A program made the translations under genes and the position numbers. From a virus (taxonomy: Duplodnaviria; Heunggongvirae; Uroviricota; Caudoviricetes): a DNA stretch of 47,442 nt. Below, in pieces: positions 3,018 through 47,442 of the stretch. Below the pieces are notes generated by a model. The model was not told the DNA's origin. It was given only the letters and a program-made list of their open reading frames with translations, and searched no databases. Position 1 is the first letter of the stretch. The number at the start of each line of letters is the position of its first letter. The stretch lies in IMG/VR virus record IMGVR_UViG_2909298281_000005. One strand, 5' to 3'.

Positions 3018-3599
3018 TTACCCTATAGGTGCTACTGGCCATTCAATATCCGGTGCAGTTGTTGTATTAACACGGTTCAGCAACACCCGATACTTTTTCC
3101 AGGCTTCCAGCAACGAGTTTTCTTCCTCCGTTGCGATTTCCAGATCTACAGCATCCTGAAGTGGCGCAATATGCTCATTCGCTGCCTGCATCAGGCTGTT
3201 TTTTGTTTCTTCCGCCTCCCGGATCCGGAATAGTTTTTCTGCTTCTGCATCTTTCACCCAGGCTGTGCCGTTCCACTTCTGATATTCCCCTCCCGGCGAC
3301 AACCAGGTAACATTTTCCGGTAACGAGCCAAGTTCAGAAATAAATAACGCGTCGCCGGAAGCCACGTCATAGACGGTTTTTCCCCGATGATCTTCAACGA
3401 GATGCCACGATGCCTCATCACTGTTGAAAACAGCCACAAAGCCAGCCGGAATATCTGGCGGTGCAATATCGGTACTGTTTGCTGGCAGACCTGTATGAGG
3501 CGGAATATATGCGTCACCTTCACCAATAAATTCATTAGTTCCGGCCAGCAGATTATAAATTTTTATGGTCCGTGGTTGTTCACTCATTCTGAATGCCAT
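3018..3599 (-). CDS. tfa: tail fibre assembly protein Tfa
   Basis: 193-aa ORF directly downstream of stf; translation closely resembles lambda Tfa as recalled. Confidence 0.85.
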
Positions 3600-33519: not shown

Positions 33520-34052
33520 TTTTCCTCACATATGTCATATAGTAAAGGATTATATATACCGTTGTTTTGGACGCTCAAACAGCGAATCAGATCAAATAAA
33601 ACGCACATTTGTTAACATTTACACAAAGTCTGCGTGGGATATTCTGAAAGAATATCCATAATGTGGAGAGAATCTATTGAAGTGCATGGTGCCGGGTGCC
33701 TCCCGGTGAATTCAGTACCAGCACCTGAATCCGCGATTATCCCATATACCTACTCGCTGATTGCCCCTCCGCACAGGGGGATTCACCATGCCAGTTTCTT
33801 TTAACAAACTCCCCGCAAACCAGAGAACAGTCAACCGCCTGAATTGTGAAGTATTTAAAAATTTCTCCCGCTAACTGATACCCGGCTAACAGTCTGGCGT
33901 TTTCTTTTTCAGCAACGGGAAAGCAACAACCACCACACCCGCCACCAGCACACCGTCAGCCAGCACTGACATTATCCGGCTGCTGCAATGCCATTCACAA
34001 AAACAGTAAGCAATCACTTTTTACCGTAACAGGTGATAATCCAGATATGTAT

Positions 34053-34516: not shown

Positions 34517-34593
34517 TGGCGCGCTGTACTGGATTCGAACCAGTGACCGATTGCTTAGAAGGCAATTGCTCTGTCCGGCTGAGCTAACAACGC
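34517..34593 (-). tRNA. tRNA-Arg (anticodon UCU)
   Basis: Cloverleaf readable: acceptor GCGTTGT/ACAGCGC, anticodon loop CTTCTAA, T-arm GGTTCGAATCC, 3-prime CCA encoded. Confidence 0.8.
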
Positions 34594-34701: not shown

Positions 34702-34777
34702 TGGTGGCCCTTGCTGGATTTGAACCAGCGACCTGGCGATTATGAGTCGCTCGCTCTCACCACTGAGCTAAAGGACC
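34702..34777 (-). tRNA. tRNA with anticodon CAU (Ile2/lysidine type or Met), ileX/ileZ-like
   Basis: Acceptor GGTCCTT/AAGGGCC, anticodon loop CTCATAA, T-arm GGTTCAAATCC, 3-prime CCA encoded; resembles E. coli ileX as recalled. Confidence 0.75.
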
Positions 34778-37989: not shown

Positions 37990-38145
37990 TTACTCCTCAG
38001 GTTCGTAAGCTGTGAAGACAGCGACCTCCGTCTGGCCGGTTCGGATTCGTACCTCGCAGAGGTCTTTCCTCGTTACCAGTGCCGTCACTATGACGGTTAA
38101 ACAGATGACGATCAGGGCGATTAGCATCGCCTTTTGCTGCTTCAT
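37990..38145 (-). CDS. hokD: Hok family toxin HokD-like (51 aa)
   Basis: MKQQKAMLIALIVICLTVIVTALVTRKDLCEVRIRTGQTEVAVFTAYEPEE; track ORF has an in-frame 19-codon upstream extension. Confidence 0.8.
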   Translation of the reverse strand: MKQQKAMLIALIVICLTVIVTALVTRKDLCEVRIRTGQTEVAVFTAYEPEE

Positions 38146-38887
38146 AGCCTGCTTCTCCTTGCCTTTCGGCACGTAAGAGGCTAACCTACGTGTGTAGAGC
38201 ATAGATATGGCCTCAGATTAATGTTAAGCGTCTTGCCGGACGCGTAATGTTAACTGGGGCTTTTCTCTATCTGCCTTTGGTGTTGATGCCCGAGGCAGAT
38301 AGCCTCAAGCACCCGCAGCAATTCTACTTAACTACCGTTACCTCGCCAATATGAAATCAATCAGAAAGGTGATCCATAAGAACAACAGCAAGACAATAAA
38401 TTGCCATTACAGCAGCAATAGCCAGCGCACATTTGAGAACCAGCACCACAACCTCCTGTATTGGACGTACACCAGTCCTGATAAATATGAGGCTGTCTCG
38501 TCAGTGATTCAATACAACTACTGGGTATAGTTTCTATGATTTTGTTCTGTGGAAATGGAAAACAGCAACCAGTCACCACCAGCACTTCTTTAAACATGCC
38601 AAGTCACACGCAAGCCAACATTATAGTTCCCTTTGAGCGAGCAGATGAAGCTAGCAAAAATATTGATCACTTAGGATGCATTACTAACGTTGCTATGTGT
38701 TAACGAACAGGGAGTGGGTCATCAGCATAAATATTTATGCAGTAGGTTTCTTTTAGGACTAAATTAATCAAAAACATTTAGATAAAATTATAAAATCAAG
38801 AAATTGGTGGCAATTAATCTTTAATTGTGCCAGCTGAATTTCGTTATTATAGAAGATTAGCTTTTTTTTGAATGTTTGGAGAGTAAA

Positions 38888-40562: not shown

Positions 40563-41545
40563 TTATAAATCAACAACATTTAGTGTTATATCAATATTAT
40601 TTAGCCTTGCAATCTCTGATGAATCACTTGCTATTTTAGCTTTTAATTTATCAATATTAATCATATCTTCATGGCTTATATAAACCATATCACCTTGGTT
40701 AACTTTAGATTTGTTCACTATGGCTTGAATAACAGACAAATCATCCATTACACCTCTCATAAATTTCACCATGCTTTGATCTTTGAAGTCAGATATCGAT
40801 TTTGAACGTTGCTTACGTTGAATTGTTCCATTACACCTCTCATAAATTTCACCATGCTTTGATCTTTGAAGTCAGATATCGATTTTGAACGTTGCTTACG
40901 TTGAATTGTTCCTTTTGTAATTACTTCATTAATTTCTTTTAAACCAGTGAGCATATCAGACAGACTGCCTTCGCAACTCATCCGATGTTTTATTGCATTG
41001 CGATTAATAATATTGAGTATAATTTCGAGTGAATCTTTATCACTCCATGGATGTAATGATGTATAATCATGATGGCGTCGAATGGCGTCAATCATATCCT
41101 GGACCATATCTTCATCTGCTTTATCGCAAAGTTCATTCACGAAATAGCTGGGGTCGATTATTTTACAATAACTTGGAGTTAGGTATCTTGAGGCTTTACA
41201 AAAACCAAAAATATATAAAGTAGAGTATTTATCTTTCAGACTCTCTCCTATTTCATTTGCTTCCTCAAAAGATTCGATAGTTTTTTTAATTTTTGCTGGA
41301 CTTGCATTCGTAGTAACTTGAACTGCTATCATGTTTTTATTATCAGCTAAATCAATGGCGGGAAAATTAACTTTAATCTGATTCATGTTTACCAGTTCAC
41401 CCATTTTCAGCGCGCGAAACATAAAGATGGTCAATGACTCAATTATTCTTTCCATGTCATGAAAGCCTGCCTGTTTGCGTTGCGCGATATAAAGCTGGAG
41501 TAGTGCAATATCACTCTGTAAGTTTCTAATAAGTGGATCAATCAT
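40563..41545 (-). pseudogene. defence-island-like protein (about 300 aa) disrupted by an 83-bp tandem duplication
   Basis: Track ORFs 40766..41545 and 40563..40772 share the duplicated peptide MVKFMRGVM...; N-terminal motif ...NQIKVNFPAIDLADNKNMIAVQVTT... Confidence 0.55.
40745..40912. repeat. perfect tandem duplication, 2 x 83 bp
   Basis: Unit CCATTACACCTCTCATAAATTTCACCATGCTTTGATCTTTGAAGTCAGATATCGATTTTGAACGTTGCTTACGTTGAATTGTT appears twice head-to-tail. Confidence 0.85.
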
Positions 41546-41797: not shown

Positions 41798-42220
41798 TCA
41801 CTTCAATAAATATCGAGCATTTCCCTGATAGAATGCTAGTATGCGCTGCATAACTTCACTCTTCCGGCACTCGCGACAGATTATGTTCTGACGCCTGTCG
41901 TAGCGACGTATTTCTCCGTCAGGTAATGACCAGATAAGGTCCGGATCAACCGCAGATGGTTCCTTCAGCTTTGCCCTTGAGAGCTTTTTACGGGCATTTT
42001 GCCAGTCCTTACGCGCCTGTTCAGACGGGAATAACCCGTAACCAGAGTTGTATACATCGCCGCTGGCAACCAGCTCTCTTGCGAGAACGCTCATCAGATA
42101 TCTTGTCGCACCTGTCTTGACTTCCAGTTGCCGTAACGTCTCACGACCGCTCTGGCGCACGAGTTCCACCACCTGCCCTTTAATTTTTTCCCGCTCTTCT
42201 TGTGTAAAAACTTTTGCCAC
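41798..42220 (-). CDS. hypothetical protein in replication module (P position)
   Basis: 140-aa ORF downstream of O-like gene; HTH-like segment; no confident family. Confidence 0.4.
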   Translation of the reverse strand: MAKVFTQEEREKIKGQVVELVRQSGRETLRQLEVKTGATRYLMSVLARELVASGDVYNSGYGLFPSEQARKDWQNARKKLSRAKLKEPSAVDPDLIWSLPDGEIRRYDRRQNIICRECRKSEVMQRILAFYQGNARYLLK

Positions 42221-42260: not shown

Positions 42261-43226
42261 TTATCCTCTGAAACCAGGCGGAATTTCTGTATCCGGTTCA
42301 GAAATATGATTAACACAACGCTGTACAGGTGAACGCCCCAGGCGGATGACCAGTTCGTCCCATTTTTCGCGGAGCTTTGACGGGCTCATGATGTTTTTTA
42401 CCCAGAACGGATCCCGCTGTACCCGACCAAACATTTCACAAATTTGTCTGTGGCTTCTGCCATCCAGCATCCGCATTGTGCGCACATCATTGGCCCAGAC
42501 AGTCCAGTTAGGCTCTTTTGGTCGCATGATCTCGCCATCATCACTGGCGGCCTGTTCGTAGAGACCCACGATCCGCCCCCATATCCACTGCGCACACGCC
42601 AGATCCTCCTGGCTACCCCACTGGCGTTTTTTCGCACTAAACACAACTGCGCCAGGGTGCCAGATTAAAAAATCCTGTTCAGCCGTCTGCGGGTCCGGTT
42701 GCGAAGCTTCCGGACGAAAAGTGTTTTTATTCTCTGTAGTAATCTCTGTTGTATTCTCTGTAGGATCATCGGGCCATTTTGACCCGATGACATTGGGTCG
42801 TTTTGAACCAATGGAGCGTTTCATTTTGACCTCTTCCATCGTGTCATTTTGACCTGATGGAGCGGCGCATTTTGAACCGATGGATTCGCTCAATTTGCCA
42901 TCATCTAAAAGCTCGCTCCCATAGTTAATCGTGTAGAAATTGGTCATATCGCGCTTTGATTTATTGAGCTTTTCACAACGCAAGAGCCCCAGCGTTTTCA
43001 GACTTGCAAACGCGCGCTTTAACGTTGACTCTGACCAGAATGGGAACTGTTCCAGCCATTGTTCCGTTGTGTTGTAAATCCAGCGAACACCATCACATTC
43101 CATGCCGGAATTGGTATCTCTCAACCAGTAATGCAACTGCTGCAACACAATGGCTTCATTTAAGCCAATCTTCATCGCAAGCTGTGTGTTTATAACCAGT
43201 GGGCGTTCAGCAAAAAGAAGGCTCAT
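42261..43226 (-). CDS. replication initiation protein, O-like, with internal origin iterons
   Basis: About 321 aa from ATG 43226 (track start 43280); repeated SIGSK peptide motif encoded by DNA iterons. Confidence 0.6.
   Translation of the reverse strand: MSLLFAERPLVINTQLAMKIGLNEAIVLQQLHYWLRDTNSGMECDGVRWIYNTTEQWLEQFPFWSESTLKRAFASLKTLGLLRCEKLNKSKRDMTNFYTINYGSELLDDGKLSESIGSKCAAPSGQNDTMEEVKMKRSIGSKRPNVIGSKWPDDPTENTTEITTENKNTFRPEASQPDPQTAEQDFLIWHPGAVVFSAKKRQWGSQEDLACAQWIWGRIVGLYEQAASDDGEIMRPKEPNWTVWANDVRTMRMLDGRSHRQICEMFGRVQRDPFWVKNIMSPSKLREKWDELVIRLGRSPVQRCVNHISEPDTEIPPGFRG
42771..42888. repeat. iteron array (candidate ori): 5 copies of CATTTTGA(C/A)C..GATGG at about 23-24 bp spacing
   Basis: Direct repeats read from sequence inside the O-like gene; a short TCTCTGT(A/T)G repeat set lies just upstream. 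Confidence 0.6.
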
Positions 43227-43728
43227 AATTCCATCCAGCTTTTTGTTGGTATTGCTGTCGATACGCAAGTTTGAAAGCAATTGCTTTTTCTATAAGTTCG
43301 TCAGTTTCACGATCCACTACGGCAGGATCAGCAAAAAGCAGTCCGGACTCCACCACATCGCCATATTCTTTGTTTAACCCGGCGATCATGTACGTGATGC
43401 TTTTTCCGTCACTAATTTCACGATACAACCTGAAATCATTAATCCGGATAGCCTCCATAATTGCAGGCACTAGCGCCGTGAACTTTTCACGCTTATCCCT
43501 GGTGTCGATAGCCTTCCAGCGTTCGAATATCTTCACTCGATTAACGCCAAGCGCTCGCTGATCAACCGCGCCACCTTCATCTGTGACACGCTGAACATCG
43601 ATGTTCGGGCGCTCTTTCAAAGCCCAGAATGCTTCAGTGATTAATATCGTCGCCTGCTCCTGTGTCATTCCTGGTCGACATATCCAGGCATCCAGAGCCT
43701 CACGAGCCTGTTCAGGAGTGATTTTCAT
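43207..43728 (-). CDS. hypothetical early protein (173 aa)
   Basis: ORF immediately downstream of dicC-like gene; no confident family. Confidence 0.4.
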   Translation of the reverse strand: MKITPEQAREALDAWICRPGMTQEQATILITEAFWALKERPNIDVQRVTDEGGAVDQRALGVNRVKIFERWKAIDTRDKREKFTALVPAIMEAIRINDFRLYREISDGKSITYMIAGLNKEYGDVVESGLLFADPAVVDRETDELIEKAIAFKLAYRQQYQQKAGWNYEPSFC

Positions 43729-43939
43729 TGTTCAACCGCCCCGCCCGCTTCGTCTTACGATATTCGTCATAAACCTTGGGATCATACAGAAGCTCGCCGC
43801 CAGATGCCTCCTGTAGACGCATCGCGCGACCTTCAGGAACTAGCTCTTGCCATTGAGAAACAGCAGATGGGTCAACGCCAGCAGCTTTCGCTACTTTGGC
43901 TTTCGTACCGTAAAAATTAATTACGTCTGATTTAAACAT
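43712..43939 (-). CDS. dicC: Cro-like regulator, DicC-like
   Basis: 75 aa from MFKSD...; divergent from dicA; GGAGGTG 4 nt upstream; C-terminal ...LVPEGRAMRLQEASGGEL.YDPKVYDEYRKTKRAGRLNNENHS matches DicC as recalled. Confidence 0.7.
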   Translation of the reverse strand: MFKSDVINFYGTKAKVAKAAGVDPSAVSQWQELVPEGRAMRLQEASGGELLYDPKVYDEYRKTKRAGRLNNENHS

Positions 43940-44016
43940 CGCACCTCCAATATTGAGTTTTCTCAATGCTAATCACTCAAGGAATCTCAAGTCAAGGATT
44001 ATTAAGATATCTAAAT

Positions 44017-45490: not shown

Positions 45491-45548
45491 TTTCTGGTGA
45501 CGTTTGGCGGTATCAGTTTTACTCCGTGACTGCTCTGCCGCCCTTTTT
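45491..45548 (+). ncRNA. dicF: DicF small RNA (cell-division-inhibitory sRNA)
   Basis: TTTCTGGTGACGTTTGGCGGTATCAGTTTTACTCCGTGACTGCTCTGCCGCCCTTTTT matches DicF as recalled; located between ydfC and dicB with terminal hairpin plus T-run. Confidence 0.65.
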
Positions 45549-45968: not shown

Positions 45969-46023
45969 GGTGATGCTGCCAACTTACTGATTTAGTGTAT
46001 GATGGTGTTTTTGAGGTGCTCCA

Positions 46024-46299
46024 GTGGCTTCTGTTTCTATCAGCTGTCCCTCCTGTTCAGCTACTGACGGGGTGGTGCGTAACGGCAAAAGCACCGCCGG
46101 ACATCAGCGCTATCTCTGCTCTCACTGCCGTAAAACATGGCAACTGCAGTTCACTTACACCGCTTCTCAACCCGGTACGCACCAGAAAATCATTGATATG
46201 GCCATGAATGGCGTTGGATGCCGGGCAACTGCCCGCATTATGGGCGTTGGCCTCAACACGATTTTACGTCACTTAAAAAACTCAGGCCGCAGTCGGTAA
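46024..46299 (+). CDS. insA: IS1 InsA
   Basis: [42 protein letters not shown]... Confidence 0.85.
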
Positions 46300-46721
46300 C
46301 CTCGCGCATACAGCCGGGCAGTGACGTCATCGTCTGCGCAGAAATGGACGAACAGTGGGGATACGTCGGGGCTAAATCGCGCCAGCGCTGGCTGTTTTAC
46401 GCGTATGACAGGCTCCGGAAGACGGTTGTTGCGCACGTATTCGGTGAACGCACTATGGCGACGCTGGTGCGTCTTATGAGCCTGCTGTCACCCTTTGACG
46501 TGGTGATATGGATGACGGATGGCTGGCCGCTGTATGAATCCCGCCTGAAGGGAAAGCTGCACGTAATCAGCAAGCGATATACGCAGCGAATTGAGCGGCA
46601 TAACCTGAATCTGAGGCAGCACCTGGCACGGCTGGGACGGAAGTCGCTGTCGTTCTCAAAATCGGTGGAGCTGCATGACAAAGTCATCGGGCATTATCTG
46701 AACATAAAACACTATCAATAA
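46218..46721 (+). CDS. insB: IS1 InsB frame (expressed as InsAB' by -1 frameshift at the A-run TTAAAAAACTC)
   Basis: Track ORF in -1 frame overlapping insA; A6C slippery run visible near 46273-46280. Confidence 0.8.
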
Positions 46722-46736
46722 GTTGGAGTCATTACC

Positions 46737-47049
46737 AAAGGCGTCTATAACGTTAAAAATGTGATTGTTGCCGATCGCATTGATGAACGACTGGAAAAAG
46801 CGAAAGAGAGCGGGGCAGACTGGGCGATTAATAACAGCCAGACACCGCTTGGCGAGATTTTCGCTGAAAAAGGCATCAAGCCGACATTAATTATCGATGC
46901 GGCTTGTCATCCTTCTATCCTGAAAGAGGCCGTAACGCTGGCTTCTCCAGCGGCACGTATTGTATTGATGGGCTTCTCCAGTGAACCGTCTGAAGTGATT
47001 CAGCAAGGAATTACCGGAAAAGAACTCTCTATTTTCTCTTCACGCTTAA
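46737..47049 (+). pseudogene. internal fragment of a Zn-dependent (MDR-type) dehydrogenase gene trapped between two IS1 copies (possibly rspB-like)
   Basis: In-frame from IS1 end to next IS1 end: ...VIVADRIDERLEKAKESGADWAINNSQ...IIDAACHPSILKEAVTLASPAARIVLMGFSSEPSEV...; no start or stop of its own. Confidence 0.55.
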
Positions 47050-47442
47050 GGTAATGACTCCAACTTATTGATAGTGTTTTATGTTCAGATAATGCCCGAT
47101 GACTTTGTCATGCAGCTCCACCGATTTTGAGAACGACAGCGACTTCCGTCCCAGCCGTGCCAGGTGCTGCCTCAGATTCAGGTTATGCCGCTCAATTCGC
47201 TGCGTATATCGCTTGCTGATTACGTGCAGCTTTCCCTTCAGGCGGGATTCATACAGCGGCCAGCCATCCGTCATCCATATCACCACGTCAAAGGGTGACA
47301 GCAGGCTCATAAGACGCACCAGCGTCGCCATAGTGCGTTCACCGAATACGTGCGCAACAACCGTCTTCCGGAGCCTGTCATACGCGTAAAACAGCCAGCG
47401 CTGGCGCGATTTAGCCCCGACGTATCCCCACTGTTCGTCCAT
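47050..47442 (-). mobile_element. second IS1 copy, inverted, truncated by the window edge
   Basis: Starts GGTAATGACTCCAACTTATTGATAGTG (reverse complement of IS1 right end); sequence identical to copy 1 where compared. Confidence 0.85.
47065..47442 (-). CDS. insB: IS1 InsB (partial, runs off window)
   Basis: Track ORF identical in translation to insB of the first copy. Confidence 0.8.

What the first reader, a model, noticed from the sequence alone, without database searches (positions are those of the whole stretch)
42771..42888. Origin-like iteron array embedded in the O-like replication gene
Five direct repeats with core CATTTTGA(C/A)C..GATGG at about 23-24 bp spacing lie in the first half of the O-like gene (encoding repeated SIGSK motifs), preceded by a short TCTCTGT(A/T)G repeat set. 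This mirrors lambda ori lying inside O, and marks the prophage replication origin and the specificity determinant of the initiator.
Basis: partly seen in the sequence, partly recalled or inferred. Interest (0 to 1): 0.45.

Follow-up and report, generated by a model that had tools for sequence, protein, structure and literature searches.

The report
Prophage replication origin inside its initiator gene
The repeats are real and are almost certainly the replication origin of a lambda-like prophage, built like phage lambda's origin but with its own repeat sequence and DNA-binding domain; this is an ordinary, well-understood kind of element.

Summary

- **Repeats.** Five 23-bp repeats lie at 42767-42882, plus a degenerate sixth at 42883-42905. 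Their core, read in the gene's direction, is GGTCAAAATG. They sit at 36-48% of a 321-aa O-like gene on the minus strand (42261-43226).
- **Anatomy.** In the gene's direction the repeats are followed by three AT-rich 12-mers (42728-42763) and a short inverted repeat (42693-42715). Phage lambda's origin has the same order of parts.
- **DNA-level element.** The cores fall in all three reading frames. Synonymous codons are frozen only in this stretch: 0.92 codon identity, against at most 0.56 in any other block of the gene.
- **Link to the initiator.** In 78 phage contigs with nearly identical C-terminal domains, repeat type tracks N-terminal domain type without exception (34 versus 44).
- **Relation to lambda O.** The C-terminal domain is a true lambda O homologue (E 3e-27). 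The N-terminal domain is not the Pfam Phage_rep_O domain.
- **Correction.** The downstream gene is DUF977/Ren-like, not a partner like lambda's P. No P gene is present.
- **Side observation.** The protein ends in a 21-residue tail that is 15/21 identical to the C-terminus of E. coli DnaT, which hints at how the host helicase is recruited.

Verdict: a new member of a known kind, of low to moderate interest. No binding or replication experiment was possible.

The parts
42767..42882 (-). Five 23-bp iterons, numbered I1 to I5 outward from the 12-mers. I1 is 42767-42789, I2 42791-42813, I3 42814-42836, I4 42837-42859 and I5 42860-42882. In the gene's direction the consensus is CATCrGGTCAAAATGacaCGATG, and I1, I2 and I4 are dyads.
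   Evidence: There are 5 cores against 1.3 expected in 47 kb. Logo positions A2, C9, A10, G15 and T22 are invariant in 30 distinct units from 8 relatives.
42883..42905 (-). Sixth unit, furthest from the 12-mers. It is degenerate here (GATGATGGCAAATTGAGCGAATC) but a good unit in more distant relatives (GAAGAGGTCAAAGTGAACGAATC).
   Evidence: (D1, fourth copy).
42728..42763 (-). Three tandem 12-mers (CTACAGAGAATA-type in the gene's direction) forming the most AT-rich stretch of the gene. Proposed DNA-unwinding element, aligned with lambda's high-AT region.
   Evidence: GC is 0.30 for 42720-42759. Synonymous-codon identity among relatives is 1.00.
42693..42715 (-). Inverted repeat GTCCGG-N11-CCGGAC just beyond the AT-rich region. 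Lambda has an inverted repeat at the same place (GTCAGAGAATTC-N4-GAATCCTCTGAC), and both begin TTCGTC.
   Evidence: The zone of frozen synonymous sites extends over it, through residues 170-189.
42261..43226 (-). O-like initiator gene, 321 aa from the ATG at 43226. The longest ORF starts at a TTG at 43280.
   Evidence: PHROG 391 'replication initiation O-like', E 6e-91. RefSeq start as.
42903..43226 (-). Codes for the N-terminal domain (residues 1-108), a predicted winged helix-turn-helix and the proposed iteron-binding module. It is not the Pfam Phage_rep_O domain.
   Evidence: Distant match to an HTH_36-type N-domain.
42339..42680 (-). Codes for the C-terminal domain (about residues 183-296), homologous to the C-terminal domain of lambda O.
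   Evidence: BLASTP 34% identity, E 3e-27. hhalign probability 99.5%.
42264..42326 (-). Codes for the C-terminal tail VQRCVNHISEPDTEIPPGFRG, which is 15/21 identical to E. coli DnaT residues 159-179. Both are the extreme C-terminus of their protein.
43966..43995 (-). pR-like sigma-70 promoter consensus match upstream of the cro-like gene. Transcription from it would run through the cro-like gene, the cII-like gene, the O-like gene and the origin.
   Evidence: consensus match only.
43207..43966 (-). Cro-like gene (43712-43966) and cII-like/YdaT-family gene (43207-43728) upstream in the same operon. The cII-like gene overlaps the start of the O-like gene by 20 nt.

Best explanation
This is the replication origin of a Qin-like lambdoid prophage. 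It lies inside the gene for its own initiator and has the same architecture as lambda's origin.

Shown here:
- The array consists of six 23-bp iterons (the sixth degenerate), then three AT-rich 12-mers, then a short inverted repeat.
- It occupies the stretch of the O-like gene that codes for a predicted disordered linker between an N-terminal winged-helix domain and a lambda-O-type C-terminal domain.
- This stretch is conserved as DNA rather than as protein.
- Iteron type is inherited together with N-domain type.

Inferred:
- Dimers of the N-terminal domain bind the dyad iterons and assemble a lambda-like 'O-some'.
- Together with supercoiling and rightward transcription from the pR-like promoter, this opens the adjacent 12-mer AT-rich region.
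- The C-terminal domain and its tail then bring in the host helicase DnaB. No P gene is encoded. Relatives with the same C-terminal domain carry either no loader gene or a DnaC-like one. Loading is therefore proposed to go through DnaC (host or phage) rather than through a P-type hijacker, possibly using the DnaT-like C-terminal tail as the docking motif.
For: 1. Non-random, oriented and regularly spaced repeats with dyad symmetry.

2. Same position and order of parts as lambda's annotated origin. Lambda's iterons lie at O offsets 349-433 of 900, followed by a region of GC 0.225. Here the iterons lie at offsets 345-460 of 966, or 322-460 counting the degenerate sixth unit, followed by GC 0.30. 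Both are followed by an inverted repeat beginning TTCGTC.

3. The protein is an initiator. It matches PHROG 391, 'replication initiation O-like' (6e-91). Its C-terminal domain is homologous to lambda O residues 135-270 (E 3e-27; hhalign 99.5%). The alignment begins in the peptide encoded by the AT-rich region.

4. Selection acts on the DNA:
- Cores fall in frames 1, 0, 2, 1, 1.
- Nucleotide identity (0.83) exceeds amino-acid identity (0.68) in the iteron stretch.
- Identical-codon use among identical residues is 0.89 in the iterons and 1.00 in the 12-mers, against 0.52 and 0.46 in the two folded domains.
- The 60-codon block scores 0.92, against a maximum of 0.56 in 157 other blocks.

5. The array is conserved in Klebsiella, Citrobacter, Salmonella and E. 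coli relatives at 67-80% protein identity.

6. Co-variation. In 78 IMG/VR loci whose C-terminal domains are 92-100% identical, the 34 with this N-domain carry 4-5 of these cores and none of the other type. The 44 with an HTH_36-type N-domain carry none of these cores and 3-5 of a different 15-bp repeat.

7. The iteron-encoded stretch (residues 109-173) is predicted disordered, with pLDDT about 26, between two folded domains.

8. Escherichia phage HannyBb, deposited as a complete phage genome, carries the same gene and array (97% identical) and has no other annotated replication gene.

9. Lambda reference facts come from PMC7466680, PMC3349717 and PMC6022878.
Against: - No binding, unwinding or replication experiment was done. 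Every functional step is inferred.
- The co-variation of N-domain and iterons could partly reflect physical linkage, since they are adjacent, and the 78 loci are not phylogenetically independent.
- High local nucleotide identity could in principle come from recent recombination of this segment. The excess of nucleotide over amino-acid identity argues against that.
- The structure model is of low overall confidence (mean pLDDT 56), and its PDB fold matches are weak (E about 0.03). The winged-helix assignment is therefore only moderately supported.
- The AT-rich region is less AT-rich than lambda's (GC 0.30 against 0.225).
- The prophage in this window is rearranged by IS1 and may never be induced productively.
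Confidence: 0.85

Rival explanations
1. The array binds the initiator, but its main role is regulatory: titration or incompatibility of the initiator, autoregulation, or exclusion of related phages. On this view replication starts elsewhere.
For: In lambda, cloned iterons together with oop cause an 'inhibition phenotype' against phages using lambda's replication system (PMC3349717). Iterons of plasmids commonly also act in copy control (general knowledge).
Against: The array comes with an adjacent AT-rich 12-mer block and an inverted repeat, in the same order as lambda's origin, and these are even more strongly conserved than the iterons. No other iteron cluster was found in the window; the two core matches outside the array are isolated, in line with the 1.3 expected by chance. 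DnaA-box matches are at chance level. HannyBb has no other annotated replication gene.
Confidence: 0.06
2. The sequence is of origin type but is an inactive relic in this genome. The prophage is defective, so the array has no current function here.
For: IS1 copies at 45970-46736 and from 47050 flank an inverted rspB fragment. The exonuclease, excisionase and integrase genes, which follow ydfD in the otherwise almost identical prophage of strain CFSAN064035, are missing from this position. An 83-bp tandem duplication splits the SMEK-domain gene.
Against: The O-like gene is intact and 100% identical to that of CFSAN064035. It is 97% identical to the gene of phage HannyBb, with only 3 substitutions across the iterons and 12-mers. 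The repressor, cro-like and cII-like genes and the promoter match are also intact. Loss of the integrase does not prevent firing of the origin in place.
Confidence: 0.07
3. The repeats are simply a tandem peptide repeat, or low-complexity linker, of the protein, and have no function as DNA.
For: Three units encode (S/V)IGSK, and the 12-mers encode TENT/TEIT/TENK.
Against: The 23-bp period is not a multiple of 3, and the cores lie in all three frames. Synonymous sites are frozen while amino acids vary. The encoded stretch is predicted disordered.
Confidence: 0.02

Closest known systems
Phage lambda's origin (ori-lambda) inside gene O, with O protein as initiator
   Same: - The origin lies in the middle of the initiator gene, in the pR operon after cro and a cII-like gene.
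- It has direct repeats with dyad symmetry and a central TCAAAAYG A-tract at 20-24 bp spacing.
- The repeats are followed by an AT-rich region and then an inverted repeat starting TTCGTC.
- The C-terminal protein domain is homologous (34% identity, E 3e-27).
(PMC7466680, PMC3349717)
   Different: - Units are 23 bp with CATCRG/CYGATG arms, against 18-19 bp with TCCCTC/GAGGGA arms.
- There are 5-6 units rather than 4.
- The AT-rich region is organised as three 12-mers and is less AT-rich.
- The N-terminal domain does not match Pfam Phage_rep_O.
- There is no P gene. The C-terminus is a DnaT-like (I/V)PxGFRG tail instead of lambda's ...NTDWIYGVDL.
Shiga-toxin phage origins (933W, P27)
   Same: Six iterons inside the O gene, with the outermost ones weakly bound yet required (PMC7466680). 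That is comparable to the 5+1 arrangement here, where the outermost unit is degenerate.
   Different: Those phages have lambda-type iterons, a lambda-type O N-domain and a P gene. This one has none of the three.
Iteron-type plasmid replicons with winged-helix Rep initiators (for example RepA_N-family initiators, PDB 4pql, 5kbj, 4pt7)
   Same: A winged-helix initiator domain binds tandem direct repeats next to an unwinding element. These are the best, although weak, structural neighbours of the N-domain.
   Different: The fold match is weak (E about 0.03) and comes from a low-confidence model. There is no DnaA-box cluster here. Here the origin is inside the initiator's coding sequence and the C-terminal domain is lambda-O-like.
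E. coli DnaT (primosomal protein i)
   Same: The last 21 residues are 15/21 identical, and both are the extreme C-terminus: VNHISEPDTEIPPGFRG against [17 protein letters not shown].
   Different: Only the tail matches. The NCBIfam DnaT score is 16 bits against a cut-off of 201, and neither the DnaT N-terminal domain nor its three-helix C-terminal domain is detected. The papers read here do not define what the tail does in DnaT (PMC13377028).

Membership tests
Lambda-type origin (origin embedded in the initiator gene) | Array located inside the initiator gene, between the parts coding for the N- and C-terminal domains | tested here: met
   Offsets 322-460 of 966 nt. The encoded residues 109-173 are predicted disordered, between the folded domains at 14-100 and 183-295. 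Lambda's iterons lie at offsets 349-433 of 900.
Lambda-type origin (origin embedded in the initiator gene) | Four or more direct repeats of about 18-23 bp with internal dyad symmetry at about 20-24 bp spacing | tested here: met
   Five units plus one degenerate unit, at spacings of 23 or 24 bp. Dyads are clear in I1, I2 and I4.
Lambda-type origin (origin embedded in the initiator gene) | AT-rich region immediately after the iterons in the gene's direction | tested here: met
   GC is 0.30 at 42720-42759, the minimum within the gene. It aligns with lambda's high-AT region, where GC is 0.225.
Lambda-type origin (origin embedded in the initiator gene) | Lies in the rightward early operon, so that transcription passes through or near it | tested here: met
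   The order is repressor, divergent pR-like promoter, cro-like gene, cII-like gene, O-like gene. The promoter is a consensus match only.
Lambda-type origin (origin embedded in the initiator gene) | The initiator binds the iterons, and the fragment supports initiator-dependent replication | not testable with these tools
   This needs gel-shift or footprinting assays and a plasmid replication assay. The indirect support is the DNA-level conservation and the co-variation.
Lambda O protein family | N-terminal Phage_rep_O domain (Pfam PF04492, lambda O residues 22-115) | tested here: not met
   There is no Pfam hit even at E 10. hhalign aligns only the C-terminal domain. As a control, lambda O hits PF04492 at 5.7e-36.
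Lambda O protein family | C-terminal domain homologous to lambda O residues 135-270 | tested here: met
   BLASTP E 3e-27, 34% identity. hhalign probability 99.5%.
Lambda O protein family | Partner P gene immediately downstream | tested here: not met
   The downstream gene is DUF977/Ren-like. None of the 74 related viral loci with enough downstream sequence has a P gene; 38 have a DnaC-like gene. A variant with a different C-terminal end (L010) does have a P gene.
E. coli DnaT | Full-length match to the DnaT model (N-terminal domain, linker, three-helix C-terminal domain) | tested here: not met
   NCBIfam NF002770 scores 16.3 bits against a cut-off of 201, matching only profile positions 160-179.
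Iteron plasmid replicons | DnaA boxes flanking the iterons and unwinding element | tested here: not met
   TTWTNCACA occurs 4 times in 47 kb against 4.5 expected, and none lies within the origin.

The most novel reading that the evidence does not exclude
The initiator dispenses with a lambda-P-type helicase hijacker because its extreme C-terminus copies the C-terminal tail of the host replication-restart protein DnaT ((I/V)PxGFRG).

On this reading the tail is a portable docking peptide. It would plug the origin-bound initiator into the host's DnaT-dependent helicase-loading route, through DnaB-DnaC or possibly PriA. The alternative tails seen on the same C-terminal domain (lambda-like NTDWIYG, and WNxxEAWExxL) would then specify which loader is used.

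If true, it would also point to a function for the DnaT tail, which the DnaT papers read here do not define.
Probability: 0.35. Interest if true: 0.6.

Novelty: new member of a known kind. Interest (0 to 1): 0.3.

Why it matters
- **Annotation.** The origin and initiator specificity of a very common E. coli prophage replication module are now pinned down. The gene is found at 80% coverage or more in 1777 of 5426 complete genomes. RefSeq mostly labels it 'hypothetical protein', and it has no Pfam family for its DNA-binding domain.
- **Practical uses.** The result allows prophage origins to be annotated. It can predict replication incompatibility or exclusion between co-resident lambdoid prophages. 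It can help interpret local amplification after induction of non-excisable prophages such as this IS1-rearranged one.
- **Evolution.** It is a clean natural example of modular exchange. The N-domain and its iterons move as one unit. The C-domain, its tail and the loader gene vary independently.
- **Possible follow-up.** The DnaT-like tail, if functional, would be a simple handle on how initiators without a P partner recruit DnaB.

Tried and rejected
- **DnaA boxes.** TTWTNCACA is at chance level and absent from the origin.
- **RNA families.** Rfam at gathering thresholds finds nothing in the O-like gene or the origin; the hits are DicF, sok, STnc100, IS009 and two tRNAs elsewhere.
- **Protein families for the initiator.** Pfam gives no significant hit. 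NCBIfam gives only the tail match to DnaT.
- **Solved structures by sequence.** Only the DnaT tail and a spurious YteR match were found.
- **Structure.** The AlphaFold model from a shallow alignment (20 sequences, at least 70% identical) has mean pLDDT 56. Its Foldseek PDB matches are weak (best E 0.03) and are used only as a hint of a winged-helix fold.
- **Literature.**
  - Full-text searches for the iteron and 12-mer strings and for the PPGFRG motif returned only unrelated papers.
  - A search for the 'initiator-solo' class of replication modules found no matching text. Weigel and Seitz 2006 is recalled from memory only and was not verified.
  - The DnaT papers read do not say what the last 20 residues of DnaT do.
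- **Peptide-repeat explanation.** Rejected on reading frames and synonymous-site conservation.
- **Downstream gene as a P analogue.** Rejected, because it is DUF977/Ren-like.
- **Technical false starts.** A file-path error, a disallowed search term, a strand argument error, and a first regular expression for the second iteron type that was too strict (corrected).
Full report
**1. What is in the sequence**

The finding lies inside a 321-aa ORF on the minus strand (42261-43226; an in-frame TTG at 43280 would give 339 aa). On the + strand the core YRTTTTGAMC occurs five times between 42775 and 42877, always in the same orientation. Only 1.32 matches are expected in the whole 47 kb on both strands, and no shuffle out of 100 reached the 7 matches observed.

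The units are 23 bp long and start 24, 23, 23 and 23 bp apart. Read in the gene's direction, outward from the 12-mers:

| Unit | Sequence | + strand coordinates |
|---|---|---|
| I1 | CATCGGGTCAAAATGGCCCGATG | 42767-42789 |
| I2 | CATTGGTTCAAAACGACCCAATG | 42791-42813 |
| I3 | GAAGAGGTCAAAATGAAACGCTC | 42814-42836 |
| I4 | CATCAGGTCAAAATGACACGATG | 42837-42859 |
| I5 | CATCGGTTCAAAATGCGCCGCTC | 42860-42882 |
| I6 (degenerate) | GATGATGGCAAATTGAGCGAATC | 42883-42905 |

I6 is a good unit in more distant relatives. I1, I2 and I4 are clear dyads. In 30 distinct units from eight relatives, positions A2, C9, A10, G15 and T22 never vary, and the conserved core is GGTCAAAATG.

Immediately after I1 in the gene's direction lie three tandem 12-mers (42728-42763). 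This is the most AT-rich stretch of the gene (GC 0.30). They are followed by the inverted repeat GTCCGG-N11-CCGGAC (42693-42715).

**2. Context**

The window is a lambdoid prophage of the Qin type.

- The gene order is tail, head, terminase, lysis, Q-like antiterminator, DUF968, hok/sok, methyltransferase, SMEK-domain gene, DUF977, O-like gene, cII-like/YdaT gene, cro-like gene, then the divergent repressor, ydfA/B/C, DicF and dicB.
- The prophage of E. coli CFSAN064035, next to rspB, is an almost identical copy. The O-like gene is 100% identical and the surrounding region about 99.9%.
- The O-like gene is third in the rightward operon, behind a pR-like promoter match at 43995-43966.
- It overlaps the end of the cII-like gene by 20 nt.

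**3. The protein**

- PHROG 391, 'replication initiation O-like', matches at 6e-91.
- Pfam gives nothing, even at E 10.
- BLASTP against lambda O, taken from the annotated lambda record, aligns residues 147-294 with lambda O residues 135-270 at 34% identity, E 3e-27. hhalign gives a probability of 99.5% for the same region only.
- Pfam's Phage_rep_O model covers lambda O residues 22-115, which is the DNA-binding N-domain.

The protein therefore shares lambda O's C-terminal domain but has a different N-terminal domain. That N-domain aligns weakly with the HTH_36/DnaD_N-type N-domain of a sister initiator from E. coli O157:H7.

An AlphaFold model was made (mean pLDDT only 56, so it is used cautiously).

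- It shows a helix-helix-strand-strand-helix-helix-strand-strand domain at residues 14-100, a helical domain at 183-295 and a disordered tail.
- Residues 109-173 have pLDDT near 26. This is exactly the stretch encoded by the iterons and 12-mers.
- The best PDB neighbours are weak (E about 0.03). They are N-terminal winged-helix domains of plasmid iteron-binding initiators (4pql, 5kbj, 4pt7).
- Neighbours among viral models are phage replication, DnaD-like and replisome-organizer proteins.

**4. Comparison with lambda's origin, read from the sequence**

| Feature | Lambda (PMC3349717) | This window |
|---|---|---|
| Iteron position in the initiator gene | offsets 349-433 of 900 | offsets 345-460 of 966 (322-460 with I6) |
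| Next element | 38-bp high-AT region, GC 0.225 | three 12-mers, GC 0.30 |
| Next element | inverted repeat GTCAGAGAATTC-N4-GAATCCTCTGAC | inverted repeat GTCCGG-N11-CCGGAC |

- The order of elements is the same in both.
- A direct DNA alignment puts the 12-mer block on lambda's high-AT region.
- In both, the inverted repeat begins TTCGTC.
- The peptide TENTTEITTENK aligns with lambda's TKDTITKEKRK.
- The iterons of both share a central TCAAAAYG and differ in the outer arms.

**5. Is it a DNA element or a peptide repeat?**

The 23-bp period shifts the reading frame. The five cores lie in frames 1, 0, 2, 1, 1, so only three units encode (S/V)IGSK.

I made a codon alignment of five relatives: this window, an E. 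coli variant at 74% identity, another at 68%, Citrobacter freundii, and a Klebsiella phage.

| Region | Identical codon where the residue is identical |
|---|---|
| N-domain | 0.52 |
| Iterons | 0.89 |
| 12-mers | 1.00 |
| C-domain | 0.46 |

In the iteron stretch, nucleotide identity (0.83) exceeds amino-acid identity (0.68). A sliding window shows a single plateau of 0.86-1.00 over residues 106-180. The 60-codon block scores 0.92, against a maximum of 0.56 in 157 other blocks. The plateau also covers the inverted repeat. This is the signature of a cis-acting DNA element laid over a tolerant coding region.

**6. Specificity**

- Relatives with the same N-domain keep the same cores, spacing and 12-mers at 67-80% protein identity. 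They include mEp460-like phages, a Klebsiella phage, and Citrobacter and Salmonella prophages.
- E. coli prophages whose initiator shares the C-terminal half (86% DNA identity) but has an HTH_36-type N-domain carry a different array at the same place. It has a 15-bp period with units like GACCCGTCAAATNTT.
- In 80 IMG/VR contigs chosen only for a C-domain 92-100% identical to this one, 34 have this N-domain. All 34 carry 4-5 of these cores and none of the other type.
- Another 44 have the HTH_36-type N-domain. All 44 carry none of these cores and 3-5 of the other type. The remaining two genes are truncated.

The recombination joint therefore lies just beyond the origin, and the N-domain and its iterons travel as a unit. 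That is what is expected of an initiator and its binding sites. The caveat is that the two are physically adjacent and the loci are not independent, so linkage contributes to the association.

**7. Helicase loading**

- The downstream gene (41798-42220) is DUF977/Ren-like.
- Phage HannyBb, deposited as a complete phage genome, has a 97% identical initiator and array and no other annotated replication gene.
- Among the viral loci with enough downstream sequence, a DnaC-like gene follows the initiator in 6 of 30 loci of this N-domain type and in 31 of 44 of the other type. A P gene never follows.
- A variant whose last residues differ (…GDWNSADGWEDVL) is followed by a Pfam Phage_lambda_P gene.

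The window protein ends in VQRCVNHISEPDTEIPPGFRG. This is 15/21 identical to E. coli DnaT residues 159-179 ([21 protein letters not shown]), and both are extreme C-termini. The rest of DnaT is not matched (16 bits against a cut-off of 201).

The lambda-O-type C-domain occurs in 2766 clusters at 50% identity. Their ends fall into classes: about 12 of 99 full-length representatives end in (I/V)PxGFRG, some end in lambda-like …NTDW(I/A)xG…, and some end in …WNxxEAWExxL. The Klebsiella phage initiator has a different C-domain (Phg_2220_C) yet keeps …VPAGFRS.

For lambda O, the last five residues are reported to be essential (PMC6022878).

My inference, which is not shown, is that the extreme C-terminus is the adaptor that selects the loading route. 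On this view the DnaT-like tail connects to DnaB-DnaC, or possibly to PriA. The recent preprimosome structure paper states that how DnaT recruits DnaB/DnaC is unknown, and it does not discuss the tail (PMC13377028).

**8. Proposed mechanism, with status**

Shown:
- the anatomy;
- homology of the C-domain to lambda O;
- DNA-level constraint on the array;
- co-inheritance of iteron type with N-domain type;
- absence of a P gene.

Inferred:
- N-domain dimers bind the dyad iterons and build an O-some.
- The A-tract centres bend the DNA.
- Supercoiling and transcription from the pR-like promoter help open the 12-mer region.
- The C-domain and tail recruit DnaB through DnaC.

Overall confidence that this is the prophage origin working in the lambda manner is 0.85.

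**9. Novelty**

- The architecture is textbook.
- This particular iteron family and its N-domain have no Pfam model.
- RefSeq mostly annotates the gene as 'hypothetical protein'.
- I found no description of them in the searchable literature, but that library lacks most older subscription papers.
- The gene is very common: it is found at 80% coverage or more in 1777 of 5426 complete E. coli genomes.

It is a new member of a known kind. The DnaT-like tail is the only part that might surprise a specialist, and it rests on sequence similarity and a small, non-independent association.

Noticed in passing
window 42264-42326 (-): The last 21 residues of the O-like initiator (VQRCVNHISEPDTEIPPGFRG) are 15/21 identical to the extreme C-terminus of E. 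coli DnaT. The same (I/V)PxGFR(G/S) ending occurs on relatives with a different C-terminal domain. It is absent from the variant that is followed by a lambda P gene.
   Followed up: partly
window 45970-47442: An IS1 copy (45970-46736) interrupts ydfD. It is followed by a 313-bp rspB fragment in inverted orientation (46737-47049) and a second, inverted IS1 from 47050 to the end of the window. The exonuclease, excisionase and integrase genes, which follow ydfD in the near-identical prophage of strain CFSAN064035, are missing here. The prophage is therefore probably unable to excise.
   Followed up: partly
window 40744-40909: A perfect 83-bp tandem duplication (40744-40826 and 40827-40909) frameshifts the SMEK-domain gene. 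That gene is a single 299-aa ORF in strain CFSAN064035. Here it is split into ORFs of 259 and 69 aa.
   Followed up: yes
L003, L004 and 44 IMG/VR loci (for example L004 3532-3621): A sister initiator has the same C-terminal domain and tail but an HTH_36-type N-domain. It carries its own array of five or six 15-bp units (GACCCGTCAAATNTT-like) at the equivalent place, which suggests a second origin-specificity type in E. coli O157:H7-type prophages.
   Followed up: partly
window 41798-42220 (-), with L003 2162-2956 and L004 2247-2987: The cassette downstream of the initiator is variable. It is DUF977/Ren-like alone, DUF1627 plus DUF977, or a DnaC-like ATPase plus DUF1627/DUF977. The variation is independent of iteron type.
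   Followed up: partly
window 45492-45543 (+), 38140-38314 (-), 33630-33820 (-), 3058-3256 (-): Rfam matches at gathering thresholds to DicF, sok antitoxin RNA, STnc100 and IS009, plus two tRNA genes at 34520-34593 and 34705-34777 upstream of the lysis region.
   Followed up: no
window 43207-43226: The cII-like/YdaT-family gene overlaps the ATG of the O-like gene by 20 nt, which suggests translational coupling of the two.
   Followed up: no
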